A stretch of DNA of 64,000 nt from Candidatus Pacearchaeota archaeon (GTDB taxonomy: Archaea; Nanobdellota; Nanobdellia; Pacearchaeales; GW2011-AR1). Shown piece by piece: positions 4,156 to 59,914 of this stretch; position 1 is the stretch's first letter, and each line of letters opens with the position of its first letter. The translations under genes and the position numbers were made by a program. Location of the stretch: positions 558,449 through 622,448 of the forward strand of contig JBAZJQ010000001.1 of assembly GCA_041651235.1 (NCBI GenBank). Direction: 5' to 3'. The notes beneath the pieces were generated by a model. That model was not told where the DNA came from. It made no database searches and saw only the letters and a program-made list of their open reading frames with translations.

Positions 4156-4512
4156 TTATCCTGTGGGTTTTTCTCTTGATTTTATAAGATGTGTAAAAAA
4201 CAAATTTAAGGAGTTATTATCATCACTTTTCCTTTTTAGATGATATTTGCATCCACCATAATCAAATGAAACATCTCCTTCTTTATTACTTTTAATATTA
4301 TTTGAACTATTGGGTAATTTGAATTCATTTTGATATTCCCTTTCATTTATTTCTAAATAAAGAGGATTTAAGCAAAATTCATCTTTATCATTTCCAGGAC
4401 GTATACTAAAACAAATATTTCCATAAGGATTTTCTGGTAGTTGTTCAACTGCCCCTACTATTTCTTCTAAATAGATTCCAGGGCAGTTAAAAATAACTTT
4501 ATTTTTATCCAT
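4156..4512 (-). CDS. hypothetical protein (orphan), third gene of an SD-led minus-strand cluster
   Basis: 118-aa ORF; GGGAGG 13 nt upstream of the ATG, inside the end of the upstream gene. Confidence 0.45.
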   Translation of the reverse strand: MDKNKVIFNCPGIYLEEIVGAVEQLPENPYGNICFSIRPGNDKDEFCLNPLYLEINEREYQNEFKLPNSSNNIKSNKEGDVSFDYGGCKYHLKRKSDDNNSLNLFFTHLIKSREKPTG

Positions 4513-4520
4513 TTTGTTTC

Positions 4521-5084
4521 TTATTGCAAACCTCCCGCTTTATACATTCTTTTCATAGCTTTTTTCCAAAATTCATTTGTTTCATTACATTGTCTATTAA
4601 AGATATTAGCTGTCCAATTTTCTCCATCATCAATTAATTCCTTTGCTCTTCCATAAAGAAGTTTAGCATCCTCGTAATCATGATTAAGTTCAGCTAATTT
4701 TCCCCCATATAAGCAGGCATCGATGTAATTAAGAATAAAGTCATAATTTCCTGTCCAATTTTCTCCATAACCTTCATGGCATTTAAAGTTACAATCATTA
4801 AAATGAGTTACTTGCTTTGTTAATTTTTTAATTTCTCTAATTGCTTTTCGAGACTTTCCAGATGCAGCAAGTCTGCATAATCTTGCAAGACCGCCTTCTA
4901 ACCCATAAATAACTGAATTTTCTAATTGCTCTTTAATCGTTTTTTCAAAACCCAATATTGCTTTTTCTCCTTTACCATAACTAGGGTTATTCAAATCAGT
5001 TTTTAATCCGATTATATCTCTATAATCTATTCTCTTGCTTTTCTTAAATATCGATAGTATATTGTATTTCATTTTATTCATCAC
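4521..5084 (-). CDS. hypothetical protein (orphan) with conserved leader
   Basis: 187-aa ORF preceded by GAAAGGAGGTGATGAATAAAATG. True start is probably ATG 5081 or 5072, not GTG 5084. Confidence 0.5.
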   Translation of the reverse strand: MMNKMKYNILSIFKKSKRIDYRDIIGLKTDLNNPSYGKGEKAILGFEKTIKEQLENSVIYGLEGGLARLCRLAASGKSRKAIREIKKLTKQVTHFNDCNFKCHEGYGENWTGNYDFILNYIDACLYGGKLAELNHDYEDAKLLYGRAKELIDDGENWTANIFNRQCNETNEFWKKAMKRMYKAGGLQ

Positions 5085-5149
5085 CTCCTTTCAGAGGTTT
5101 TGTTTCAATTTTGTTTTTTGTTTGTGTTTTCATTTTGTTTGTTTTTATG
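5085..5149 (-). promoter_or_regulatory. conserved A/C-rich leader + strong SD, copy 1
   Basis: Minus-strand reading: AAACAAACAAAATGAAAACACAAACAAAAAACAAAATTGAAAC...GAAAGGAGGTG. Core shared with copies at 5714..5820 and 25960..26085. Confidence 0.55.
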
Positions 5150-5200
5150 ATGTATATTTATCTTCATATAATTAAAAAATTTAAAATAAAATTTGTATTA

Positions 5201-5713
5201 TTATCTCTGGACAGTATATTTTATCTTAGATATATGGTACCAATCCCCATAGCCTTCAAGCTTGCCATCTCTTTCTTCCGCATCCTGTATACCCAGAGTA
5301 ATATAATGTTTTTCTTGCTTGGTTCTAGCGTTTACAACTACCTTTTCATGTGCCACAAAAGCTGAATCCTTCCTCTTAAATTCATCGCATTTCCATACAG
5401 GATATTCATGATTCACAAACTGGGAAGCCTTAAATAAATCCCCTTTGCAGTAATAATCAGTAAGAGCTTCCTTGTTACAATAAAGTTTATCAAAATGTCC
5501 CCGAATAGTAACAGGAATTTCTTCCGGATCCCCCCAGGGCACACGATAAAACTTACCCAAATACTTAACAATAGATTTCTTATTATCTTTTTCATTAGAA
5601 GCTTGCCAGTAAGCATAAAGATTATCTGCTAAGTTCTCCGCGTTAATTGGTTCATCAAGAACAACACGCTTTCCAGTTAGTCTTTCTTTTAATGTCGCCA
5701 CCATTTTATTCAT
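5201..5713 (-). CDS. hypothetical protein (orphan) with conserved leader
   Basis: 170-aa ORF preceded by TTGAAAGGAGGTAATGAATAAAATG; visibly higher G+C than its neighbours. Confidence 0.5.
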   Translation of the reverse strand: MNKMVATLKERLTGKRVVLDEPINAENLADNLYAYWQASNEKDNKKSIVKYLGKFYRVPWGDPEEIPVTIRGHFDKLYCNKEALTDYYCKGDLFKASQFVNHEYPVWKCDEFKRKDSAFVAHEKVVVNARTKQEKHYITLGIQDAEERDGKLEGYGDWYHISKIKYTVQR

Positions 5714-5820
5714 TACCTCCTTTCAACTCTTTATTAAATTGAGTCTCAACTAAGCTTATTTTATTCTCATTTTTTTGTGTTATTTTATTTGTCATTTTGT
5801 TTTTTATTTGTATTTTATTA
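5714..5820 (-). promoter_or_regulatory. conserved A/C-rich leader + strong SD, copy 2
   Basis: Minus-strand reading: AAAAAACAAAATGACAAATAAAATAACACAAAAAAATG...TTTAATAAAGAGTTGAAAGGAGGTAATG. Confidence 0.5.
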
Positions 5821-5920
5821 TTTATTGTTATTATATAATGGTAACACTACTATATCAATGTTATTAGCTTAAAATTGTTCAAAACGCAAGATTTAAATAT
5901 ATTATTGCTTTTTAATTAAA

Positions 5921-6880
5921 ATGATTAGTTTAGATTTAAAAGATAGGAAGATATTATATGAATTAGATAAAGACTGCAGGCAGAGTTCTTCTGAGATAGG
6001 TAAAAAAATTAGATTAAATAAGAATACGATTAATTACAAAATTAAAAGAATGGAAGCTGAAGGGATAATCCAAGGATATTATGCGATAATTGATAGTTCA
6101 AAATTAGGATATTTTAGTTTTAGAGTTTATTTGAAATTTTTTAATACAACTAAAGAAAAAGAACAGGAAATAATAAAATGGTTAAAAGAAAATAAAAAAG
6201 TAGGTGTTGTTTCTAAATTTGATAGTATTTATGATTTGGGTTTTTTTGTATGGGTTAAAACTATTTATGAATTTGATGATTTTTGGGTAGAATTCAAGAA
6301 AAATTTCAGGGAATTTTTTTGGAATGAAAAAGTGCATGTTTTTTCAAAAGTCTATCATTTTAAAAGAAGATATTTATTAGAAGAAAAAAGACAATTAAGT
6401 GAAAAGTATGAAATAATTGGAAGTAATAAGATAGAAGATTATGATAATTTAGATCTAAAAATCCTGATGTTATTAGCTAAAAATTCTAAAATTCCATTAA
6501 TAGATTTAGCTAGTAAGCTTAAATCTCCTCCTAGAACTATTGCGTTTAGGATAAAAAGACTTGAGAAAAAAGAGATTATACAGGGGTATAGAGTAATTAT
6601 TAATATGGAGAAAATTGGCTATGAATATTATAAAATTGATTTTATATTAAATGAAATGCATGATTTTGAGAAATTAATTAATTATGCAAAAAATAATCCT
6701 AATATAATTTATATTGATAGGACTTTAGCTGAACTTGATTTTGAAATCGATGTTGAAGTTAAGAACAGACAAGAGCTGCAAAAATTAATAGAAAATATAA
6801 AAGTTAATTTTAGTATTCGCGATACAGAAGTATTTATTGTAAAAGAATATTATAAGCTTGAGACTTTGCCTCAGGTTTAA
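5921..6880 (+). CDS. tandem (double) Lrp/AsnC-family transcriptional regulator
   Basis: Two HTH_AsnC-like modules: LDLKDRKILYELDKDCRQSSSEIGKKIRLNKNTINYKIKRMEAEGIIQGY and LDLKILMLLAKNSKIPLIDLASKLKSPPRTIAFRIKRLEKKEIIQGY. Confidence 0.8.
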   Translation: MISLDLKDRKILYELDKDCRQSSSEIGKKIRLNKNTINYKIKRMEAEGIIQGYYAIIDSSKLGYFSFRVYLKFFNTTKEKEQEIIKWLKENKKVGVVSKFDSIYDLGFFVWVKTIYEFDDFWVEFKKNFREFFWNEKVHVFSKVYHFKRRYLLEEKRQLSEKYEIIGSNKIEDYDNLDLKILMLLAKNSKIPLIDLASKLKSPPRTIAFRIKRLEKKEIIQGYRVIINMEKIGYEYYKIDFILNEMHDFEKLINYAKNNPNIIYIDRTLAELDFEIDVEVKNRQELQKLIENIKVNFSIRDTEVFIVKEYYKLETLPQV

Positions 6881-6923
6881 AAAAGATAATTCTATATATT
6901 TGACTGCTTATTTATATGTATAT

Positions 6924-7016
6924 TGATAATGTATAAACTCATATCTTATGCAGATGAGATGATTAAAATTTCGATAAACAGATTACTTATTGTTTGTCTT
7001 AAGAAGATAAGATATT
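6924..7016 (+). repeat. intergenic modular repeat, locus 1 (degenerate A + B + C)
   Basis: TGATAATGTATAAACTCAT ... TGCAGATGAGATGATTAAAATTTCGAT ... ACAGATTACTTATTGTTTGTCTTAAGAAGATAAGATAT. Confidence 0.7.
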
Positions 7017-7037
7017 ATGAATTAAATAGCCTTAAAA

Positions 7038-7145
7038 ATGAACAAACAAAAATTAATTGAAAGCTTGAAAGAAAAAGGATTTAATGAGAAAATTATAACT
7101 GCATTTTTAGTGTTAAAAGAGAGGATTTTGTTTTTGTTCATTTAG
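7038..7145 (+). pseudogene. possible remnant of a protein-L-isoaspartate O-methyltransferase N-terminus
   Basis: 35-codon ORF MNKQKLIESLKEKGFNEKIITAFLVLKERILFLFI resembles Pcm N-termini (..L.E.L...G.I....V..AF..VPRE.F) but stops before the methyltransferase fold. Confidence 0.3.
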
Positions 7146-7206
7146 TAGAATAGGAGGTTTGAAGCTATAATTAGATTTATAAGTCGAATGTTTTTATATA
7201 TTTTCT

Positions 7207-13008: not shown

Positions 13009-13023
13009 ATTTATGGAATATCG

Positions 13024-13126
13024 GTAATGTATTAAGACATGAGATGAGTTGATGAGAAGATTAAGCTTTGTTTGATATCTTTTAAGAATAAATGATTTGT
13101 TATTTGTTTTATTAAGATATTAATAT
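13024..13126 (+). repeat. intergenic modular repeat, locus 2 (A+B+C)
   Basis: GTAATGTATTAAGACAT / GTTGATGAGAAGATTAAGCTTTGTTTGAT / AATGATTTGTTATTTGTTTTATTAAGATATTAATAT; begins 16 nt after the fen stop. Confidence 0.75.
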
Positions 13127-13136
13127 TATTTAAGAA

Positions 13137-14860: not shown

Positions 14861-14914
14861 TTTCTAATTATTTTAAGATGAGATTATTTATAAATCCTTT
14901 GATTTATTTAATTT

Positions 14915-15088
14915 ATAATCTATTAAGACATAAGATGTGCAGATGATGGCTTATTGGTAATATAAAATCTTAATAGCTGAGTTGATGAGCAGATTAAGCT
15001 TTGTTCGATGTTAATTATTATGGATTAAATATAATTTAAATTTTAATAGACAGATGTTTTGTTGTTTGTTTTAAGAAGAGATGGATAT
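14915..15088 (+). repeat. intergenic modular repeat, locus 3 (A+B+B+C)
   Basis: ATAATCTATTAAGACAT / GTGCAGATGATGG / GAGTTGATGAGCAGATTAAGCTTTGTTCGAT / GACAGATGTTTTGTTGTTTGTTTTAAGAAGAGATGGATAT. Confidence 0.75.
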
Positions 15089-15132
15089 TAATTTAGAATA
15101 AAATATTAATTATAAGGATTTGCACGGCCTCC

Positions 15133-15780: not shown

Positions 15781-15880
15781 ATTATATTTAGAAAAAACAG
15801 ATTTAAATATCTTATTGTATTTGCAATTATTGATTTTATATTGAGATTTTAATTATTAATAATGTTAATGACTGATGCTT

Positions 15881-16068
15881 TTTGTAGATGATAAGATTAA
15901 GATGCTGATGATTTATATTTAAAATTATTTATCGATAACTTATTAAGGCATTCGTTGAGTTGATGATAAGATAGCAAGTTCATTAGATTGATTAATGAAA
16001 AATCAAAGATTGCTTATTTCTTTTTTATCTCAGATGACTTGTTGTTTGTTTTGTTAAATTATTGATAT
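15881..16068 (+). repeat. intergenic modular repeat, locus 4 (B+A+B+C)
   Basis: TTTGTAGATGATAAGATTAAGATGCTGATGAT / ATAACTTATTAAGGCAT / GAGTTGATGATAAGATAGCAAG / TCAGATGACTTGTTGTTTGTTTTGTTAAATTATTGATAT. Confidence 0.7.
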
Positions 16069-16121
16069 ATTCAATTAATGTTTTTAGATAGTATTAAAAA
16101 TATATCTTACTTAATTGTTTT

Positions 16122-24158: not shown

Positions 24159-24250
24159 GATTGTTATAATGGGATGTATGGTAGATAAAAAGGTATTAAT
24201 AATATAAAAAATATACAATAAGATATCTGTTATTTAGCTTAATGTCCGTA

Positions 24251-24560
24251 GTTAAGATGTTTGTTCTATAAGATATTGATATTTATAATTTATTAAGACA
24301 TATGTTATGCATAGGATATTAAGATGTTGATGATGATTTTTACTGAATTTTTTATAATCTTATAGAACAAACATTTTGTAGATGAGAAGATTAAAATGTT
24401 TTTGACATTTATTATTAATTGATAATTATTTTAATATTAATGAGAGTATTTTGATGAATAGATGTTTTGTTGTTTGTCTTAAGAAGATATAGATATATTA
24501 CTATATTTGGAATGTTAAGGTCTTATACTTTATACAGAAGAGGGTTAAGATGTTTATAAT
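24251..24560 (+). repeat. intergenic modular repeat, locus 6 (densest cluster; several A/B/C/D modules plus an internal inverted repeat)
   Basis: ATAATTTATTAAGACAT, GCATAGGATATTAAGATGTTGATGAT, TACTGAATTTTTTATAATC, TTGTAGATGAGAAGATTAAAATGTTTTTGAC, AATAGATGTTTTGTTGTTTGTCTTAAGAAGATATAGATAT, ACAGAAGAGGGTTAAGATGTTTATAAT. Also an imperfect (18/19) inverted repeat AAGATGTTTGTTCTATAAG (24254) / CTTATAGAACAAACATTTT (24359). Confidence 0.75.
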
Positions 24561-24613: not shown

Positions 24614-24724
24614 TTATTCTCCTCTTCTTTGCTTTCTTTTCTTCTTTACACGTCTAAGTCTTTTTCTCTGCCATTTCCATCTCATTTGGTTTTTCTTTTT
24701 CCAACGTCTTGAGCTTCTTTTCAT
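24614..24724 (-). CDS. very basic 36-aa peptide, probable ribosomal protein L41e
   Basis: Below the ORF-track cutoff. MKRSSRRWKKKNQMRWKWQRKRLRRVKKKRKQRRGE resembles the K/R-rich L41e pattern (..RWKKKRMRRLKRKRRK..). Confidence 0.45.
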   Translation of the reverse strand: MKRSSRRWKKKNQMRWKWQRKRLRRVKKKRKQRRGE

Positions 24725-24800: not shown

Positions 24801-24873
24801 AGCCCTGTAGTCTAGCGGTCAAGGATCCGGCCCTCTGGAGGCTGGGACCCAGGTTCGAATCCTGGCGGGGCTA
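24801..24873 (+). tRNA. tRNA-Gln (anticodon CUG)
   Basis: Hand-folded cloverleaf: acceptor AGCCCTG/CGGGGCT, anticodon stem CGGCC/GGCTG, loop CTCTGGA, T arm CCAGG-TTCGAAT-CCTGG; no encoded CCA. Confidence 0.9.
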
Positions 24874-24874
24874 T

Positions 24875-25861
24875 TTAGTTATAATTATTCTTGAATAAAT
24901 TACCAAATCCTGGAGTCCACTCATCAGTTATCATTAAAACTGAATCTACTGTCCTTATTACTTCAGGAAATTCTTTTTTTAAATTTTCTATGATTTTGTA
25001 ATATTCTTGATAATTGTTTACAATTAATTCGGGTTCTATCTGAGATAGGTTTCTAATAAAGTATTGAACATTCGGCAGAGATGAAATATAACTTAAAAGT
25101 CTTTTTTCATCTTCTTTTGTGTATTTTTCTAATTTTATTATAGCTTTATATAACTCTAACCCTAACTTGTTAAGATCAACCCCGATTCTATATTGAGTTA
25201 TTACTTCCTTTTCTTTTAATTTTTTTAGTCTATTTTTGATAATAATTTCTGTAGACCTAATTCTTTTAGCCAGTTCTGTCAGAGAAATTCTTCCGTTATT
25301 TACTATTTGAGCAAGAATAGCATAATCTTTCTGGTCAAGATCATTATTTACAACTTCGCCAGCAAACATTGTAGGCTGGGTTATTTCATTTGTAAAATAC
25401 ATTTTTGAATATTGCTTAACATCAACAAGAATGCCATCTTCTTGATCAACGATTATTTTATTAAATTGAGACATAAAGTCATTTTTTATTTCATAAAATT
25501 CATAATCTGTTTTTGCAAAAATGGAGATTATTAAATCCCAGCTCCCAGAACATTCTCCCATCCAATAAACTCTCCCTAATGAACGCAAATATTTAAACAA
25601 CTTATCTTTTTCTAAGGGGATATTCTTTAGTTTGACATAAATTTTATAGGCTTTAAATCCCATTTTATTAGGATTAATTGCTGTTTGAAATCCAGTGATT
25701 ATCCCTCTTTTGATTAATTGATTAATTCTATATTCAACTGCTTGGCGAGATTTTCTAATTTTCTTAGCTAAAATTGTTGAAGGAACCCTACAATTTTTAT
25801 CTAGTTCTGCAAGAAGTTTTTTATCGGCCTTGTCTAATAAAAGCTTGTTTATTTCAACCAT
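24875..25861 (-). CDS. tandem (double) Lrp/AsnC-family transcriptional regulator, paralog of 5921..6880
   Basis: Trimmed to ATG 25861. LDKADKKLLAELDKNCRVPSTILAKKIRKSRQAVEYRINQLIKRGIITGF and LDQKDYAILAQIVNNGRISLTELAKRIRSTEIIIKNRLKKLKEKEVITQY. Confidence 0.8.
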   Translation of the reverse strand: MVEINKLLLDKADKKLLAELDKNCRVPSTILAKKIRKSRQAVEYRINQLIKRGIITGFQTAINPNKMGFKAYKIYVKLKNIPLEKDKLFKYLRSLGRVYWMGECSGSWDLIISIFAKTDYEFYEIKNDFMSQFNKIIVDQEDGILVDVKQYSKMYFTNEITQPTMFAGEVVNNDLDQKDYAILAQIVNNGRISLTELAKRIRSTEIIIKNRLKKLKEKEVITQYRIGVDLNKLGLELYKAIIKLEKYTKEDEKRLLSYISSLPNVQYFIRNLSQIEPELIVNNYQEYYKIIENLKKEFPEVIRTVDSVLMITDEWTPGFGNLFKNNYN

Positions 25862-25959
25862 ATTTAGCATAAGAGATATATAGTTTATAAATATTATCAT
25901 TTATGCTTAAATATTAAAAGAAAGTTTAATATGCTTTATAATCTTGTGATGAATAACTA

Positions 25960-26085
25960 AACAGCAGAAATAAACAAACAAAATGAAAAACAAAAAACAA
26001 CATAAGATTTGCATAAGAAATTCAAGTGCAGAACTTGAACTAGGTTATACTTTAATAAACAAATTGAAAGGGGGTAAACAACAAA
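25960..26085 (+). promoter_or_regulatory. conserved A/C-rich leader + SD, copy 3
   Basis: AAATAAACAAACAAAATGAAAAACAAAAAACAACATAAG ... TTTAATAAACAAATTGAAAGGGGGTAAACAACAAAATG. Confidence 0.5.
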
Positions 26086-26883
26086 ATGGCTAAAAGGATA
26101 GTAACAAATAAACGATTTGATGCTTATTTGGATAAATTGTGTAACAAAATAAACACTGCAAGTAGGATTCATGGAAATATAAATCAATTAAATAAACAAT
26201 CGAATCTTGAAAATAGAATAGGTATTTTAAACGGCAAAATAGCAGAGAGAGTAGCTTCTGAATGTAAAGAAGAACCAGTTTGCGAAAGTCTTCCTTACGT
26301 AATATTATGGGGCTATCGGGATTTATTAAAAGAAAAACAGTGTCCTGAAATTGATTTTTATTCTAGAATGCAAGGTATTTTAGATTATGCCCAAAATAAA
26401 ATAAAGATTGCACAAGAAAAGTCAGGAGAAAATATTGATGTAGAACATAAGCTTTACGAAAAGAATCAAAATTTTGGACTTAGTGATTTGGATATACAAG
26501 AATTAACTAGGATTGAAGATGAACATCGTGAATGTTCCAATGCAGTGAATAATTATATAATTGTTGGAAACCAATTACTAGGACATCAAATAATCCATAG
26601 TTTTCATCAATTAGCTGAAAGCAAAGAAAAACCAATTGCTAGATTTTATGAAAGAAGATTGACAGAAAAAGAATATAATTTATTTATAAATTCTTCATAT
26701 GAAGAAATAATGGATTATCTTTTGATTGAGTGGGAGATGAAAGATTTTGATGAAGATAGGAGGAAATATCATTCTTTTGGTGTATATAATTGGACTGAGA
26801 TGCCTAAGGAGAATTCTATGTTCAGTATTCAGAAGAAAATCGCTAAATGGAATAAAAAAGAAACTTCTGAAGAAGAATTTTAA
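26086..26883 (+). CDS. hypothetical protein (orphan) with conserved leader
   Basis: 265-aa ORF, no motif; divergent from the tandem-Lrp gene. Confidence 0.5.
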   Translation: MAKRIVTNKRFDAYLDKLCNKINTASRIHGNINQLNKQSNLENRIGILNGKIAERVASECKEEPVCESLPYVILWGYRDLLKEKQCPEIDFYSRMQGILDYAQNKIKIAQEKSGENIDVEHKLYEKNQNFGLSDLDIQELTRIEDEHRECSNAVNNYIIVGNQLLGHQIIHSFHQLAESKEKPIARFYERRLTEKEYNLFINSSYEEIMDYLLIEWEMKDFDEDRRKYHSFGVYNWTEMPKENSMFSIQKKIAKWNKKETSEEEF

Positions 26884-27259: not shown

Positions 27260-27359
27260 ATAATTAAATATGAATTTCTGATGATTGAGTTTATCTGCTG
27301 ATTTTTATTGTTCTTCGAATAATAAACATTTAAAAAGAATCCGAAAGTTAACTAATTAT

Positions 27360-27432
27360 GCCCCTTTCATCTAGAGGCCAAGGATCCAGCCTTCTCAAGG
27401 CTGTAACCCGGGTTCAAATCCCGGAGGGGGCA
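27360..27432 (+). tRNA. tRNA-Glu (anticodon CUC)
   Basis: Acceptor GCCCCTT/AGGGGGC, anticodon stem CAGCC/GGCTG, loop TTCTCAA, T arm CCGGG-TTCAAAT-CCCGG. Confidence 0.9.
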
Positions 27433-27473
27433 TAATTCAAAATACTTATAAATAAAGTTTTTGTATAATATGT

Positions 27474-28016: not shown

Positions 28017-28031
28017 CTTAGAATTTTCACT

Positions 28032-28152
28032 TTTTTATAATTTATTATGACAAATGTTTTGCAGATGAAAGGATTAAAATATTTAAGATATATGCAAATT
28101 TTTATTAATTAAAGATTTATTATTTAATTTGACAGATAGAGAGATATAAGAA
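28032..28152 (+). repeat. intergenic modular repeat, locus 8 (D/A + B + C-like)
   Basis: TTTTTTATAATTTATTATGACAA / TTTTGCAGATGAAAGGATTAAAATATTTAAGAT / GACAGATAGAGAGATATAAGAA; begins 16 nt after the stop. Confidence 0.65.
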
Positions 28153-29596: not shown

Positions 29597-29670
29597 TTTT
29601 TTGTTCTATTTTTTATCTTTATCTTTTTTATTTTTTAATCGCTTAATCAGAGTTCTAATTTTAATATACT

Positions 29671-29724
29671 GATAATTTATTAGGGCATAATTTGTGCAGA
29701 TGAGAAGATTAAGAGGTTTATAGG
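29671..29724 (+). repeat. intergenic modular repeat, locus 9 (A+B)
   Basis: GATAATTTATTAGGGCAT / TTTGTGCAGATGAGAAGATTAAGAGGTTTATAGG. Confidence 0.7.
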
Positions 29725-29782
29725 ATTATCAAAAATTTTTATTTTAAGAAAGTTTTATAAATGTTTATTTCTTTAAAGTTTT

Positions 29783-33917: not shown

Positions 33918-34052
33918 GAGTAAAGATGTTTATTAGATACGATTAATGTATTAATAATTTATTAAGACATCAGTTTTGTTTGAGATAGTTAAGATATGTT
34001 TGATTAGCTTTATGAACAAATGATTGTTTGTGTGTTTTATTATAATACTGAT
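33918..34052 (+). repeat. intergenic modular repeat, locus 10 (A+B+C)
   Basis: AATAATTTATTAAGACAT / GTTTTGTTTGAGATAGTTAAGATATGTTTGAT / GAACAAATGATTGTTTGTGTGTTTTATTATAATACTGAT. Confidence 0.7.
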
Positions 34053-34985: not shown

Positions 34986-35135
34986 ATGCAAAAAAAGGTG
35001 ACTCTTAGCTTAGATTCTGAAACATATCAAAAATTCCAGGAATTTTGTGAAGAAAATGATATTATGCTTTCTAAAAGAATTGAGAGATTAATTAACAAAC
35101 ATTTAGAAGAAAATAAAAAAGGAGGAAAAAAATGA
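34986..35135 (+). CDS. ribbon-helix-helix (CopG-like) small protein
   Basis: Below the ORF-track cutoff. MQKKVTLSLDSETYQKFQEFCEENDIMLSKRIERLINKHLEE has an RHH pattern (beta strand VTLSLD plus two helices). Its stop overlaps the next start (ATGA). Confidence 0.5.
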   Translation: MQKKVTLSLDSETYQKFQEFCEENDIMLSKRIERLINKHLEENKKGGKK

Positions 35136-37666
35136 AAATAAAATACTTGAGTTTAATTTGTATTAGTTTTATTTTAATGCTAGTTTTAATTACTAATTTA
35201 TCTGCTGTTTGTACAGTTACTTTTGATAAAGATATTTATCATAATCAGGAAACAGTGACTGCAGCTATGTCTTGTTCAGAAGCAACTGAAAAATCAAAGA
35301 GTTATACTCTGAACTGGACAAATTCTTCTGGTTATCAATTAGAATTAGATACAGGAACAACCCCTGCTATCAGTGATACTCAATTTTTTAAAACATATGT
35401 TTTATCTCCTACATATAGTTCAGTTTATGGAGGAATTATTAATGCTACTTTAATTGGTTCTAATTTAGAAGGAAATGACTGGGCAAATGTAACTAATGCT
35501 GGTGCAAGTGATTTAGTTATTACTAATGCTAGTTTTACTTCAATTGTTTTACTTGGAAAAAGAATAGGGATAAAATTTGATATAAAAGACGAGAATAACA
35601 AAAAGATAAGTAATGCAAAATGCTCTGTTAATATCTTAGACAGTGGGAATAACCCAATAGACTCCTCTATCAGAGAATTTTATAGTTTTGATGGAAGAGC
35701 TAGTTTTACTCAAGAAATAACTAAAGATAGTTTTAATGAAGGAAGTGAATATAGAGCAGAAATTAGATGCACTTGTGGGGGAAACAACACAAATGAAGCT
35801 TGTTTTGATGAAGAGGGAACTGTAGTTATAAACAGCAAAGGAACTGCTTCTGGTCCTTTTGTTACAAATACTTGGCTGACTGTTAATACTTTAACTGATA
35901 AATCTATTTATCATATGAAAGACGAAATCTTTATTTGTGTTAATGTCACGAATGTAGATTCAAATTCTAGAGTCCCTATGCATATTTATAATCAAGTGAG
36001 ATGTAGCCGGGATTTAGACAATAATAGTGATTTAGATAGGGTTTTGATAATTTCAGATGATGAAGAACCTGATGAAAGGGGGATTTCAGTTAATACAACT
36101 CAAATGCAATGCAAAAGATTTGTTATTCCTGAATCGTCTTATTTGCAAGGGAGAAATTCACAATGTTATGCATCTACTACTGTTTGGGTTTTAGACCAAA
36201 ATAGAGAAAAAATTGTAAGCTATGCTACAACAAGTCCTGCATTTAATATAACTAGTGATGAACTAAATATAATTCCTGATTGGGAAAGAATCTCAGAATA
36301 TGTTTTTAATTCCATAATTAATTTAAGTGATTCTAATTTTGCTAATGTTAATGGAACTGGCATAGGCAATATAGATCTTAAATTACATAAAGTTTCCTCT
36401 ACAATTAAATCTTCTGAACAATATGGAGAAACAGAAATTGGTTTAGATAGTTTCGTTAACACTAAATATATAAAAAATATCACCGGGTATAACTTAACTG
36501 GTACTTTTACTCCTTATTTAGAAATTTTAGAAGATGGAAGTGTTGAAATTGAATTAAGAGATGTTGATATTTCTTCTAATGGATGGTACAATATAACTCT
36601 TGAATTTAATAGCTTTGAGGAAAGGCAAAGTTCTGCATTAGAAGGCATAGAAAACAAAACTGGAACCTTCCATTTAGATGTTAGCTGTCCTTCAACAGGA
36701 ACAATTGGAAATGATATGGATTGTGTAATTACTGCTTATGTTGAAGATTCTCAGTTAATGGAAAAAGAAGCTGATTTCACTTGTTATATTTCAGATGGGG
36801 TCTTTAGTTACAGTTCTGTTAATTTTAATCAAATGATTACAAGAACTCCTCTCTCTTTAACAAGAAGTTTTTCTGTTCCTTCTAGTTTTGTTTCTGGACA
36901 AAATTATATATTGCAGTGTTATGCAGATTATTATAATCTCGGAAGCAGAAGAGACAGCTTTTATGATACATTTATTGCTTCAACACCTGCAGAAGGAGGT
37001 GGAAGTTCAAGTGAAGGAGGTTCAGATAAAGGAATAAATGATAGTGGAAAAGCTCCAATAACTGGAGGAGTAGTTGATGAAGGAGATAATGAAACTCCTA
37101 TAAATATTATTGATTTGTTTAACGAAAAGCCTTATGTTGTTTATTTTGTCTTATTAATAGTTATACTAACTATAATTATTTTATTAATCAGGCATAGAAA
37201 ATGCAAAGATAGTTATCATGTTTCAAGCAAAACTAACTGGAAAGGTATTGTTGTTAGCATATTAAAATTCTTATTAGTTGTTATTATTTTTGCAGTTATA
37301 ATTATAGCTTTGGTTTATGGTTATCCAGCTCTTAAGAATAATTCAATACAATTGACAAGTAGTTCATATTCAATTTTGCAAGATAGCTTATTTAGAAATA
37401 TAATTTTAATAGGTTTTATTGTATTAATGATAATTATTTTGTTTAAAGCATTGAATTTAAGAGGAGAGATAAGATTTGGAGATAGCCCAAAATCTTATGA
37501 AGATAAGCAGTATTCTAAAATGCAGAATAATATTAATAAGATGGTATTAAAAAGAGAAATTGAAAGAGAAAAAGAAAGAATTAAAGATTCTTATAAAACA
37601 AGAAAAGTTTCTCCAGGAGAATTTAGCAGATTTCTTAATAAAATAGAAGATAAGATTGAAAAATAG
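35132..37666 (+). CDS. large Cys-rich surface protein with signal peptide and C-terminal TM helices
   Basis: 844 aa; signal MKIKYLSLICISFILMLVLITNLSAV; many N-x-S/T sequons; Gly/Ser linker; three C-terminal TM helices; SD AAGGAGG. Confidence 0.7.
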   Translation: MKIKYLSLICISFILMLVLITNLSAVCTVTFDKDIYHNQETVTAAMSCSEATEKSKSYTLNWTNSSGYQLELDTGTTPAISDTQFFKTYVLSPTYSSVYGGIINATLIGSNLEGNDWANVTNAGASDLVITNASFTSIVLLGKRIGIKFDIKDENNKKISNAKCSVNILDSGNNPIDSSIREFYSFDGRASFTQEITKDSFNEGSEYRAEIRCTCGGNNTNEACFDEEGTVVINSKGTASGPFVTNTWLTVNTLTDKSIYHMKDEIFICVNVTNVDSNSRVPMHIYNQVRCSRDLDNNSDLDRVLIISDDEEPDERGISVNTTQMQCKRFVIPESSYLQGRNSQCYASTTVWVLDQNREKIVSYATTSPAFNITSDELNIIPDWERISEYVFNSIINLSDSNFANVNGTGIGNIDLKLHKVSSTIKSSEQYGETEIGLDSFVNTKYIKNITGYNLTGTFTPYLEILEDGSVEIELRDVDISSNGWYNITLEFNSFEERQSSALEGIENKTGTFHLDVSCPSTGTIGNDMDCVITAYVEDSQLMEKEADFTCYISDGVFSYSSVNFNQMITRTPLSLTRSFSVPSSFVSGQNYILQCYADYYNLGSRRDSFYDTFIASTPAEGGGSSSEGGSDKGINDSGKAPITGGVVDEGDNETPINIIDLFNEKPYVVYFVLLIVILTIIILLIRHRKCKDSYHVSSKTNWKGIVVSILKFLLVVIIFAVIIIALVYGYPALKNNSIQLTSSSYSILQDSLFRNIILIGFIVLMIIILFKALNLRGEIRFGDSPKSYEDKQYSKMQNNINKMVLKREIEREKERIKDSYKTRKVSPGEFSRFLNKIEDKIEK

Positions 37667-59680: not shown

Positions 59681-59746
59681 TTTTTTATTTTTTTATTTTT
59701 TTAATATATTTTATTTTTTAACTTTAATTGGAATTTTTATATTTTG

Positions 59747-59872
59747 GTAATTTATTAAAACAATCGATTTGCAGATAATTAGATTAAGATGTGTTTGAGA
59801 TTATTTTTTAATTGATATTTTTGATGAACAGATATCTTGTTGTTTGTCTTAATAAGATATCGGCATATTGAT
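59747..59872 (+). repeat. intergenic modular repeat, locus 16 (A+B+C)
   Basis: GGTAATTTATTAAAACAA / ATTTGCAGATAATTAGATTAAGATGTGTTTGAGAT / GAACAGATATCTTGTTGTTTGTCTTAATAAGATATCGGCATATTGAT. Confidence 0.75.
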
Positions 59873-59914
59873 AATTAGGATTAGACTTATAAATGGAAAT
59901 TATTGTGTATTTAT

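What the first reader, a model, noticed from the sequence alone, without database searches (positions are those of the whole stretch)
4156..6880. Divergent cassette copy 1: tandem-Lrp/AsnC regulator facing leader-bearing orphan genes
The double-HTH Lrp/AsnC gene 5921..6880 is divergently transcribed from orphan gene 5201..5713 across a 207-bp region holding the conserved leader.

The same layout recurs 19 kb away. Paralogous double-Lrp gene 24875..25861 is divergent from orphan 26086..26883 across 224 bp holding the same leader.

In copy 1 a second leader-bearing orphan (4521..5084) and an SD-coupled 118-aa gene follow in tandem. The pattern is a duplicated regulator-plus-target architecture in which the regulator and the 5' leader are conserved but the cargo proteins are unrelated. 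That suggests a dedicated regulon or an exchangeable-cargo module of unknown function.
Basis: seen in the sequence. Interest (0 to 1): 0.7.

Follow-up and report, generated by a model that had tools for sequence, protein, structure and literature searches.

The report
Tandem-Lrp regulators with swappable orphan operons
Two related double-Lrp transcription regulators in a Pacearchaeota genome each face a promoter that drives fast-changing genes of unknown function, and the shared 'leader' in front of those genes is a tiny upstream reading frame joined to a generic ribosome-binding junction rather than a special RNA element.

Summary
Two paralogous tandem Lrp/AsnC regulators (5921-6880 +, 24875-25861 -, 31% identical) each face orphan genes. 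The three leaders are the 1st, 2nd and 4th most similar of 1081 upstream-region pairs in the window.

- "Exchangeable cargo" is supported. In four close relatives the regulator, the intergenic region and the first 39 nt of the cargo gene stay 77-95% identical. The rest of the gene is unrelated, and a conserved flank resumes after it. The copy-2 promoter drives four different first genes in four genomes.
- The divergent layout itself is ordinary. About 70 of 80 tandem-Lrp loci have it, with many kinds of neighbour.
- The leader is not a dedicated element. Its 3' half is a generic low-GC archaeal stop/Shine-Dalgarno/start junction, with at least 119 metagenome hits. Its 5' half is an A/C-rich start region whose ATG opens a 19-36-codon mini-ORF that ends at the cargo start codon.

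Best model: a local Lrp-type regulator controls a promoter "slot", and cargo is translated as a second cistron coupled to the mini-ORF.

Cargo function remains unknown: 0-1 homologues each, no family hits, and low-confidence structure models.

It is a new variant of known kinds and of moderate interest.

The parts
5921..6880 (+). Tandem Lrp/AsnC regulator, copy 1 (319 aa). It has two complete HTH + RAM-like units and looks leaderless (TATA 5892-5901).
   Evidence: Pfam HTH_AsnC-type 64.3 bits and HTH_24 74.7 bits, two stretches each. PDB phmmer aligns residues 175-305 and 2-124 each to full-length 150-170-aa Lrp/FFRP chains. Orthologues of 52-63% identity exist in Woese-/Pace-/Nanoarchaeota MAGs.
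5875..5889 (-). Operator-like box TTGCGTTTTGAACAA. It lies between the two divergent TATA boxes (cargo TATA about 5850-5859, regulator TATA 5892-5901).
   Evidence: The core TTGCG(T/C)T(T/A)T is kept in 14 of 15 aligned copy-1-type intergenic regions. It occurs as a single exact copy in the window. From my own knowledge, not checked here, it matches 12 of 15 positions of the Ss-LrpB consensus TTGYAWWWWWTRCAA.
5706..5795 (-). Mini-ORF 1 (29 codons, MTNKITQKNENKISLVETQFNKELKGGNE*). Its stop TAA lies 1 nt before the cargo ATG.
   Evidence: An independent gene caller also called it on a Logan contig. The chance of an ORF this long in dinucleotide shuffles is 0.0095. L170 has a similar mini-ORF next to a tandem Lrp.
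5702..5725 (-). Junction module 1, TGAAAGGAGGTAATGAATAAAATG. It carries stops in all three frames, an SD and the start codon.
5201..5713 (-). Cargo c170, an orphan (170 aa from the first ATG, 167 aa from AAAATG at 5704). A T-rich stretch follows its stop.
   Evidence: It matches only itself among 5.8 billion clustered proteins. It has no Pfam, NCBIfam, PADLOC or PHROG hit.
5074..5133 (-). Mini-ORF 2 (19 codons, MKTQTKNKIETKPLKGGDE*), with its own TATA-like boxes upstream (5150-5175). An anti-SD hairpin CCUCU/AGGAGG lies inside it.
   Evidence: The hairpin folds at -8.9 kcal/mol, z = -3.77. Shuffle p = 0.082.
5070..5093 (-). Junction module 2, TGAAAGGAGGTGATGAATAAAATG.
4521..5072 (-). Cargo c187 (183 aa from AAAATG), predicted all-helical.
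   Evidence: It has one homologue (P0005, 54% identity), which lies after an HTH_10 regulator in another genome. The AF2 model has pLDDT 46.7.
4156..4512 (-). Cargo c118, an orphan. It starts 8 nt after the c187 stop.
   Evidence: It matches only itself in the protein collection. Sequence.
24875..25861 (-). Tandem Lrp/AsnC regulator, copy 2 (328 aa). It abuts tRNA-Gln (24801-24873).
   Evidence: The L110 orthologue is 45% identical. L191 is 79% identical over the first 47 residues seen. The L002 copy-2-type N-terminus is shown.
25863..25910 (.). Inverted repeat TTTAGCATAAGAGATA / TATCATTTATGCTTAA flanking the copy-2 regulator's TATA box (25884-25893). It is a candidate autoregulatory operator.
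   Evidence: It is not conserved in sequence in L110.
25983..26093 (+). Mini-ORF 3 (36 codons, MKNKKQHKICIRNSSAELELGYTLINKLKGGKQQNG*). Its stop overlaps the cargo start (ATGGCTAA).
   Evidence: Shuffle p = 0.014. Its ATG aligns with the start codon of the cargo gene at the orthologous L110 promoter and with the ATPase start in L191.
26065..26088 (+). Junction module 3, TGAAAGGGGGTAAACAACAAAATG.
26086..26883 (+). Cargo c265, predicted all-helical.
   Evidence: It has one homologue among 1.84 billion representatives (P0003, 35% identity). P0003 is also divergent from the orthologous tandem Lrp. The AF2 model has pLDDT 44.1.

Best explanation
Each copy is a local Lrp-type 'divergon'. A tandem (double) Lrp/AsnC regulator is transcribed divergently from a promoter that it most likely controls, through an operator lying between or over the two core promoters. 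That promoter acts as an expression slot. Over evolutionary time the genes behind it are replaced, while the regulator, both promoters and the first few codons stay. In this genome the slots hold lineage-specific orphan proteins.

The shared 'leader' is a two-part translation device.
1. A short, A/C-rich, SD-less 5' end carries an ATG that opens a 19-36-codon mini-ORF.
2. A generic junction module (TGA AAGGAGGT ... TAA A ATG) closes all three frames, provides a Shine-Dalgarno sequence, and places the mini-ORF stop 1 nt before, or overlapping, the cargo ATG.

On this model the cargo is translated as a second cistron. Ribosomes that translated the mini-ORF reinitiate at the cargo ATG (termination-reinitiation) or open the SD.

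Shown: the anatomy, the statistics, cargo turnover between conserved flanks, and the generic nature of the junction.

Inferred: that the regulator acts on this promoter, that the mini-ORF is translated, and that coupling occurs.

The function of the cargo proteins is not known.
For: Regulator identity.

Divergent layout. About 70 of 80 tandem-Lrp loci have a divergent neighbour at a gap of about 105-150 nt. The neighbours are unrelated to each other and include B12-radical-SAM enzymes, polyprenyl synthases, small membrane proteins and orphans.

Operator. The box between the promoters is conserved in 14 of 15 copy-1-type regions.

Cargo turnover, copy 1. In L003/L004/L006/L009 DNA identity is 83-91% in the regulator, 84-93% in the intergenic region and 77-95% in ORF nt 1-39. 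It falls to 58-64% (noise level) in nt 40-240. A conserved 138-238-nt flank lies immediately downstream of the cargo block.

Cargo turnover, copy 2. The orthologous promoter precedes a mini-ORF plus c265 in the window, a c265 homologue in L110, a 48-aa small protein in L002 and a P-loop ATPase in L191.

Cargo proteins are orphans.

Most genes of the window lack an SD and look leaderless.

Junction module. It is generic: at least 119 metagenome stretches, and 30 of 38 long upstream ORFs end in the same ...KGGxx* frame with the stop 1 nt before the ATG.

Mini-ORFs.
- All three are open from the conserved ATG to the junction (shuffle p 0.0095, 0.082, 0.014).
- Similar mini-ORFs precede other cargo in other contigs, several of them next to Lrp-type regulators. 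Examples are L170, L229, L047, L148, L213 and L192, plus 5-8-codon uORFs ending at or just before the cargo ATG in L003/4/6/9.
- The peptide sequence is not conserved. L047 and L053 read the same DNA in different frames, which fits a role for translation itself rather than for the peptide.

Stop-start distances are +1, +1 and -8 nt. This matches the requirement reported for termination-reinitiation in Haloferax and E. coli, where about 20 nt nearly abolishes coupling (PMC10666635). SD motifs contribute variably (PMC6728339).

In leader 2 an anti-SD hairpin lies inside the mini-ORF (z = -3.77).
Against: There are no expression data, so transcription start sites, mini-ORF translation and coupling are all inferred.

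Orthologous loci work without a mini-ORF. L002, L010 and L014 have a leader plus SD only. L015, L110 and L191 start the first gene directly.

Short upstream ORFs ending near a start codon are not rare in this AT-rich window. About 6-8 of 45 genes have one of 13 or more codons, and some are clearly spurious.

Leaders 1 and 2 are related by duplication, so they are not independent cases.

Leaders 1 and 3 show no significant structure.

Operator function is untested, and the copy-2 palindrome is not conserved in L110.

The second promoter (5085-5200) has no copy of the operator box.
Confidence: 0.55

Rival explanations
1. The mini-ORFs are non-functional scars of gene turnover. Cargo genes came from operon-internal positions and brought their generic junction with them. 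The stub of the former first gene and the tail of the cargo's former upstream neighbour form a meaningless ORF. Cargo is translated by ordinary SD-dependent initiation on an unstructured A/C-rich leader.
For: The junction is generic and mostly operon-internal. Orthologues have a leader plus SD without a mini-ORF (L002, L010, L014). The peptide is not conserved, and the frame differs between L047 and L053. In L002 a 133-nt copy (98.5% identical) of the 3' end of a small gene plus its junction sits in front of another cargo gene, which shows that such pieces do move. Chance upstream ORFs are a real background in this window.
Against: All three leaders, and at least 8 leaders in other contigs, keep the frame open exactly to the junction stop. 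The frame stays open even where the DNA is read in another frame. In the relatives the 5-8-codon uORFs are kept in 4 of 4 genomes.
Confidence: 0.3
2. Mini-ORF and cargo are fused by a programmed +1 ribosomal frameshift at the stop. Cargo proteins would then carry a common N-terminal tag, which might act as a targeting or secretion signal for host-interaction effectors.
For: Cargo is in the +1 frame in all three leaders. An SD-like GGAGG lies 4-7 nt upstream of the last sense codon; from memory, this resembles prfB. In relatives a conserved 12-aa N-terminus (MTNETQ[EK]QVERE) is fused in frame to unrelated proteins, including operon-internal ones without a promoter (L002 3093, L006 1692). In L053 the mini-ORF is fused in frame to the cargo, while L047 differs by one A.
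Against: The last sense codons differ (GAA, GGC, ACA in L047), so there is no shared slippery site. Every cargo has its own ATG at the canonical 10-11 nt from the SD. Leaders 1 and 2 are duplicates, so the frame agreement amounts to two independent cases. The KGG ending is simply the SD read in frame, and it also ends 30 of 38 ordinary upstream genes.
Confidence: 0.05
3. The cargo blocks are a defence, anti-defence or toxin-antitoxin-type variable island, and the tandem Lrp acts as its conserved controller. From my own knowledge, this would be analogous to Aca regulators next to variable acr genes.
For: Turnover of small orphan genes next to a conserved HTH regulator is high. Neighbouring genes in related loci include MazE/PIN, ParE and AbiEii, and by my reading of the ORF sequences AbrB-type antitoxin/PIN pairs in L002 and L009. 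A 46-54-aa small protein is often the first cistron.
Against: No cargo protein has a PADLOC or PHROG hit. The small protein has no Pfam family. There is no integrase or viral context. The viral-contig search with the tag pattern returned only unrelated hits. The regulators sit near RFC and PolB in several genomes, which suggests vertical inheritance.
Confidence: 0.1

Closest known systems
Local Lrp/AsnC (feast/famine) regulators transcribed divergently from their target gene. From my own knowledge, examples are E. coli AsnC-asnA, Sulfolobus BarR and Ss-LrpB.
   Same: They share the AsnC-type HTH plus RAM-like domain, the divergent target at about 100-200 bp, and an operator-like box between or over the core promoters.
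   Different: Here two complete Lrp units are fused in one 320-aa chain, and no such tandem chain was found among solved structures. The targets are unrelated orphans that are replaced between genomes rather than an amino-acid metabolism gene.
Translational coupling by termination-reinitiation at overlapping or abutting gene pairs (Huber et al. 2019, PMC6728339; Huber et al. 2023, PMC10666635).
   Same: Stop and start are 1 nt apart or overlapping, and an SD is embedded in the 3' end of the upstream ORF.
   Different: The upstream partner is a 19-36-codon ORF with no conserved peptide, not a gene for a complex subunit. Coupling has not been tested here.
Bacterial leader peptides and regulatory uORFs (attenuation or ribosome-stalling leaders; from my own knowledge).
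   Same: A short translated ORF lies in the 5' leader of a regulated gene. In leader 2 an anti-SD hairpin lies within the uORF.
   Different: There is no terminator/antiterminator alternative and no conserved stalling peptide. The codon bias (Lys/Asn/Thr/Gln) simply mirrors the A-rich sequence.
Replacement-type flexible genomic islands and integron-like cassette slots (from my own knowledge).
   Same: Conserved flanks on both sides hold unrelated genes in close relatives, and a resident promoter drives whatever is inserted.
   Different: No integrase or attC-like repeat was seen. The upstream breakpoint lies about 39 nt inside the ORF. The slot is tied to a dedicated regulator.
Siroheme decarboxylase NirDL / AhbAB (tandem or paired Lrp-like enzymes).
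   Same: Two Lrp/AsnC-like units.
   Different: NCBIfam AhbA and AhbB score 34 and 28 bits against cut-offs of 140 and 125. The best matches are DNA-binding Lrp/FFRP proteins.

Membership tests
Lrp/AsnC (FFRP) transcription regulators | N-terminal AsnC-type winged helix-turn-helix | tested here: met
   Pfam HTH_AsnC-type scores 64.3 and 56.4 bits (cut-off 27). HTH_24 scores 74.7 and 60.7 bits (cut-off 21.9). Both proteins show two stretches each.
Lrp/AsnC (FFRP) transcription regulators | C-terminal RAM (AsnC_trans_reg) effector/oligomerisation domain after the HTH | tested here: inconclusive
   Pfam AsnC_trans_reg scores 20.6 bits, below its cut-off of 25, and only in the second half of copy 1. 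However, phmmer alignments to PDB Lrp/FFRP chains run through the RAM part for both halves of copy 1 (175-305 to 2-135; 2-124 to 10-130).
Lrp/AsnC (FFRP) transcription regulators | Sequence-specific binding to an operator in its own or its target's promoter, modulated by a small ligand | not testable with these tools
   Only candidate operators were found: the conserved box 5875-5889 and the inverted repeat 25863-25910.
Siroheme decarboxylase AhbA/AhbB/NirDL | Match to the AhbA/AhbB equivalog models | tested here: not met
   Scores are 34.3 and 28.3 bits against cut-offs of 140 and 125.
Termination-reinitiation coupled gene pair | Co-directed ORFs whose stop and start overlap or are a few nt apart | tested here: met
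   TAA-A-ATG at 5702-5708 and 5070-5076, and ATGGCTAA at 26086-26093.
Termination-reinitiation coupled gene pair | Downstream translation depends on translation of the upstream ORF | not testable with these tools
   This needs a reporter assay or ribosome profiling.
Double-glycine (GG) leader peptides processed by C39 peptidases | The GG motif is followed by a core peptide in the same ORF | tested here: not met
   Only 2-5 residues follow the GG before the stop. The KGG ending is the SD read in frame, and it also ends 30 of 38 long upstream genes.
prfB-type programmed +1 frameshift | A conserved shift-prone codon before the in-frame stop, with an upstream SD | tested here: not met
   An SD is present, but the last sense codons differ (GAA, GAA, GGC; ACA in L047). 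Every cargo has its own ATG.
Integron-type gene cassettes | Integrase gene and attC-like imperfect palindromes bounding the cassettes | tested here: inconclusive
   No recombinase domain was found in the ORFs scanned around copy 1. No recurring palindrome was found at the cassette ends. The whole window was not scanned for integrases.
Known anti-phage defence or phage protein families | Match of a cargo protein to a PADLOC or PHROG model | tested here: not met
   None of the four cargo proteins has a hit.

The most novel reading that the evidence does not exclude
The tandem-Lrp gene, its promoter, the conserved start stub (about 39 nt, MTNETQ...) and the conserved downstream flank together form a dedicated, integrase-independent cassette-exchange platform. 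DPANN archaea would use it to shuffle fast-evolving orphan proteins, possibly host-interaction factors, under one sensor. The mini-ORF or N-terminal stub would be a functional part of it, acting as a ribosome-delivery cistron or an N-terminal signal, rather than a by-product.
Probability: 0.15. Interest if true: 0.75.

Novelty: new variant of a known kind. Interest (0 to 1): 0.45.

Why it matters
Gene regulation and translation in DPANN archaea are almost unstudied, because these organisms are uncultured.

This locus offers a concrete, testable picture of three things.
- A widespread but uncharacterised regulator type, the tandem Lrp, which is nearly always paired with a divergent target.
- How SD-led genes may be expressed in a genome that otherwise looks leaderless, namely as second cistrons behind a mini-ORF.
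- A recombination-prone 'slot' in which orphan genes are exchanged between precisely conserved flanks.

If the slot is a real exchange platform, it would mark where these reduced genomes keep their most variable, and perhaps host-related, genes. If not, the finding is an ordinary local regulator plus generic translation signals.

Tried and rejected
1. Chance similarity of the leaders. Rejected: the pairs rank 1, 2 and 4 of 1081.

2. Double-glycine leader peptide or ubiquitin-like 'GG' peptide. Rejected: KGG is the SD read in frame and also ends ordinary genes.

3. Programmed +1 frameshift. Judged unlikely because there is no common slippery codon.

4. Mini-ORFs as decayed copies of the 46-54-aa small protein (xTITKRIAKHGxQAxIIxP) that is the first cistron next to tandem Lrp in L002, L061 and L069.
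- A profile of six members gives no significant hit to any window reading frame.
- I took the family for SpoVT/AbrB by eye, but Pfam gives no support. The only PDB hint is 2glw at E = 1.4.

5. Viral origin. A scan of IMG/VR with the tag pattern gave 28 unrelated hits.

6. Structure prediction. c187 (single sequence) gave pLDDT 46.7 and c265 (2-sequence alignment) gave 44.1. These are too poor for fold searches, so none were run.

7. Family searches. Pfam, NCBIfam, PADLOC and PHROGs found nothing for the window cargo, and Pfam found nothing for ten cargo proteins of relatives.

8. RNA searches. Rfam on the window and five related loci, and tRNA scans, found only four tRNAs in the window.

9. 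The GTTAC-N-GTAAC palindrome seen in the L231 promoter is absent from the window.

10. A conserved RNA structure in the leaders. Only leader 2 has a significant hairpin.

11. Literature searches for tandem Lrp in archaea, or for leaderless/SD usage in DPANN, found nothing specific.


Full report
**Source and setting**

The window is a 27% GC archaeal chromosome segment that encodes PolB, RFC and tRNAs. NCBI names the cargo proteins as hypothetical proteins of a 'Candidatus Pacearchaeota archaeon' MAG, on a 647,740-bp contig.

Most genes of the window have a TATA-like box about 30 nt upstream of the ATG and no Shine-Dalgarno (SD) sequence, so they look leaderless. The three cargo genes are exceptions to this pattern.

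**Checking the observation**

*Regulators.*
- Both carry two AsnC-type HTH domains above the Pfam cut-offs.
- For copy 1, each half aligns over the full length of solved 150-170-aa Lrp/FFRP proteins.
- They are therefore true tandem Lrp/AsnC proteins.
- They are 31% identical to each other.
- They score far below the cut-offs for siroheme decarboxylase AhbA/B.

*Leader similarity.*
- In an all-against-all local alignment of 47 upstream regions of the window, the three leader pairs rank 1, 2 and 4 of 1081. Their scores are 54, 50 and 46, against a 99th percentile of 37.
- The 24-nt 3' motif occurs only at the three cargo starts.
- The similarity is therefore real and above the AT-rich background.

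*Other points.*
- The cargo proteins are unrelated to each other.

**The regulator family**

A scan of one genome per species found more than 427 relatives of the tandem Lrp. They occur in Woese-, Pace-, Nano-, Micr- and Iainarchaeota, in Thermoplasmatota and in other groups.

In about 70 of the 80 loci fetched, the upstream neighbour is divergent, usually 105-150 nt away. The neighbours differ widely and include B12-radical-SAM enzymes, polyprenyl synthases, a small membrane protein and orphans. The 'regulator facing a target' layout is therefore the family's normal habit: a local regulator with a divergent target.

The closest copy-1 orthologues (52-63% identity, L002-L015) share two features:
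- an operator-like box, TTGCG(T/C)T(T/A)TGAAC, between the two TATA boxes (14 of 15 regions);
- a conserved cargo-side promoter.

In the window the box is at 5875-5889, and it is the only exact copy in 64 kb.

**Cargo turnover**

*Homologues.*
- c170 and c118 have no homologue in 5.8 billion clustered proteins.
- c187 has one homologue.
- c265 has one homologue among 1.84 billion representatives.

*Family and structure searches.*
- None of the four matches Pfam, NCBIfam, PADLOC or PHROGs.
- Ten cargo proteins from relatives also have no Pfam hit.
- Among relatives the cargo proteins fall into several weakly related or unrelated groups.

*Copy 1.* Four closely related genomes (L003, L004, L006, L009) show a sharp pattern.

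| Segment | Pairwise DNA identity |
|---|---|
| Regulator | 83-91% |
| Intergenic region | 84-93% |
| First 39 nt of the cargo ORF | 77-95% |
| Next 200 nt of the cargo ORF | 58-64% (noise level) |

Immediately after the cargo block, a 138-238-nt segment is again about 80-90% identical in three of the four genomes (L003, L004, L006). The cargo is therefore replaced between two conserved flanks.

*Copy 2.* The orthologous promoter (AAAGTTTAATAT...) precedes a different first gene in each genome:
- a mini-ORF plus c265 in the window;
- a c265 homologue directly in L110 (regulator 45% and cargo 35% identical);
- a 48-aa small protein in L002;
- a P-loop ATPase in L191.

L002 also carries both regulator paralogues about 6.6 kb apart, so the duplicated layout is older than this genome.

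**What the leader is**

*The 3' half.*
- TGAAAGGRGGT..A..AA.AAAATG has stops in all three frames (TGA, GG-TAA, AA-TAA-A), an SD and a start codon.
- Among 38 cases with a long upstream gene, 30 end in the frame ...KGGxx*, with the stop 1 nt before the ATG.
- It is therefore a generic gene-junction module. The 'LKGG' it encodes is a by-product.

*The 5' half.*
- AAACAAAATGA(A/C)AAA is the promoter-proximal start region.
- In L015, L191 and L110 the aligned ATG starts an ordinary protein.
- In all three window leaders this ATG opens an ORF of 29, 19 or 36 codons. Each runs exactly to the junction stop, 1 nt before the cargo ATG or overlapping it.
- Dinucleotide shuffles give ORFs this long with p = 0.0095, 0.082 and 0.014.
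- An independent gene caller also called the 29-codon ORF.

*Mini-ORFs elsewhere.* The same design recurs in other contigs, often beside Lrp-type regulators:
- L170 (MIDKKQTQIEMKGLVETQKKELKGGNK*, compared with ...SLVETQFNKELKGGNE* in the window);
- L229, L047, L148, L213 and L192;
- L230, with only MKGGNK*.

L003/4/6/9 carry a 5-8-codon uORF that ends at or just before the cargo ATG, overlapping it in three of the four.

*The peptide is not conserved.* L047 and L053 share the DNA but read it in different frames. In L053 the mini-ORF is fused to the cargo.

*The long leader arose within this lineage.* The orthologues of c265 (L110) and c187 (L231) have short, SD-less leaders without the module. 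The three window leaders therefore became alike within this lineage.

**Mechanism proposed**

1. The tandem Lrp binds between or over the divergent core promoters and controls the cargo promoter. It probably also controls its own.
2. The transcript begins with a short A/C-rich, SD-less 5' end.
3. Ribosomes start at the mini-ORF and terminate at the junction.
4. They then reinitiate at the cargo ATG, helped by the embedded SD.

Published reporter work in Haloferax and E. coli bears on step 4. Coupling is strict at overlaps or distances of a few nt and is almost lost at about 20 nt. The contribution of the SD varies between gene pairs (PMC6728339, PMC10666635). The distances here (+1, +1, -8) fit that requirement.

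In leader 2 a hairpin that pairs CCUCU with the SD lies inside the mini-ORF (z = -3.77). The other two leaders show no significant structure.

**Caveats**

- There are no expression data.
- Several orthologues work without a mini-ORF.
- Short upstream ORFs ending near start codons occur at roughly 15% of genes in this window, some of them clearly by chance.
- Leaders 1 and 2 are duplicates of each other.
- I therefore give the full model about 0.55 and the 'scar' alternative about 0.3.

**Ideas rejected**

- *GG leader peptide.* Rejected, because KGG is the SD read in frame.
- *Programmed +1 frameshift.* Judged unlikely, because there is no shared shift codon and every cargo has its own ATG.
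- *Mini-ORFs as decayed copies of a 46-54-aa small-protein family.* That family is the first cistron next to tandem Lrp in L002, L061 and L069. A profile of it finds nothing in the window, and Pfam assigns it no family.
- *Viral origin.* Not supported.
- *Structure prediction.* The c187 and c265 models had pLDDT 47 and 44, so no fold search was justified.

**Verdict**

- 'Exchangeable cargo under a conserved regulator' is supported.
- 'A conserved dedicated leader or regulon' is not supported. The leader is a composite of a start-region mini-ORF and a generic junction.
- The finding is a new variant of known kinds: a local Lrp regulator, uORF or translational coupling, and a replacement-type variable locus.
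- Cargo function remains unknown.

Noticed in passing
window 6885-7030, 13010-13135, 14910-15100, 15880-16080, 24250-24505, 28025-28115, 29660-29750, 33919-34031, 59735-59875: A family of repeated intergenic elements of about 120-160 nt. Its consensus is ATTGATAATTTATTAAGACAT..GTGCAGATGAGAAGATTAAG ... TTTTGATGAACAGATGTTTTGTTGTTTGTCTTAAGAAGATAT. There are at least 8 copies. One lies just after each regulator's 3' side. It has no Rfam match. Some copies carry UGAUGA/CUGA-like boxes.
   Followed up: partly
L003 169-306, L004 4907-5140, L006 845-1067: A conserved, relatively GC-rich segment lies immediately downstream of the swapped cargo block (alignment A4). It holds a possible 15-aa ORF, MAKSPPELREILEIQ, with synonymous third-position differences. 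It has no Rfam or tRNA hit.
   Followed up: partly
L002 12446-12589 and 3895-4038; L061 5349-5495; L069 5770-5904; L156 12400-12561; L178 694-831: A conserved 46-54-aa protein family (x-TITKRIAKHG-QA-II-P-LL...L-PG) is the first cistron divergent from tandem-Lrp genes in several genomes. It has no Pfam family. A 133-nt copy (98.5% identical) of its 3' end plus junction is duplicated within L002.
   Followed up: partly
L047 about 1866-1960 and L053 about 5780-5880: Two related loci share the leader DNA, including a GC hairpin CGGCTCAAGCCG, but read it in different frames. One extra A in L053 fuses the mini-ORF in frame with the downstream gene.
   Followed up: no
L002 2464-3890, L003 1246, L004 5867, L006 1692 and 2512, L009 3271 and 3641: Unrelated proteins share a 12-aa N-terminus, MTNETQ[EK]QVERE (about 40 nt of DNA). 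Two of them overlap the end of the preceding gene and have no promoter of their own.
   Followed up: partly
window 24614-24724 (-): A 36-aa, extremely basic ORF, MKRSSRRWKKKNQMRWKWQRKRLRRVKKKRKQRRGE. By eye it resembles ribosomal protein eL41. It lies between RFC and tRNA-Gln.
   Followed up: no
window 34986-35135 (+): A 49-aa ORF ending ...NKKGGKK* overlaps the start of an 844-aa membrane/surface protein gene (35132-37666). It is an in-window example of the generic junction after a real small gene.
   Followed up: no
window 7040-7147 (+): A short ORF, MNKQKLIESLKEKGFNEKIITAFLVLKERILFLFI*. By eye it looks like the truncated N-terminus of a protein-L-isoaspartate methyltransferase. It lies between the copy-1 regulator and PolB.
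   Followed up: no
L231 3575-4186 and 7224-11600: The only homologue of c187 heads a run of five orphan genes behind an HTH_10 regulator. A stand-alone C39-type peptidase lies about 4 kb upstream, and MazE/PIN, ParE and AbiEii genes lie in the same 16-kb locus.
   Followed up: no
window 24801-24873 and 27359-27433: The copy-2 unit (regulator, c265 and an 83-aa ORF) is bracketed by tRNA-Gln and tRNA-Glu. No integrase was seen.
   Followed up: no
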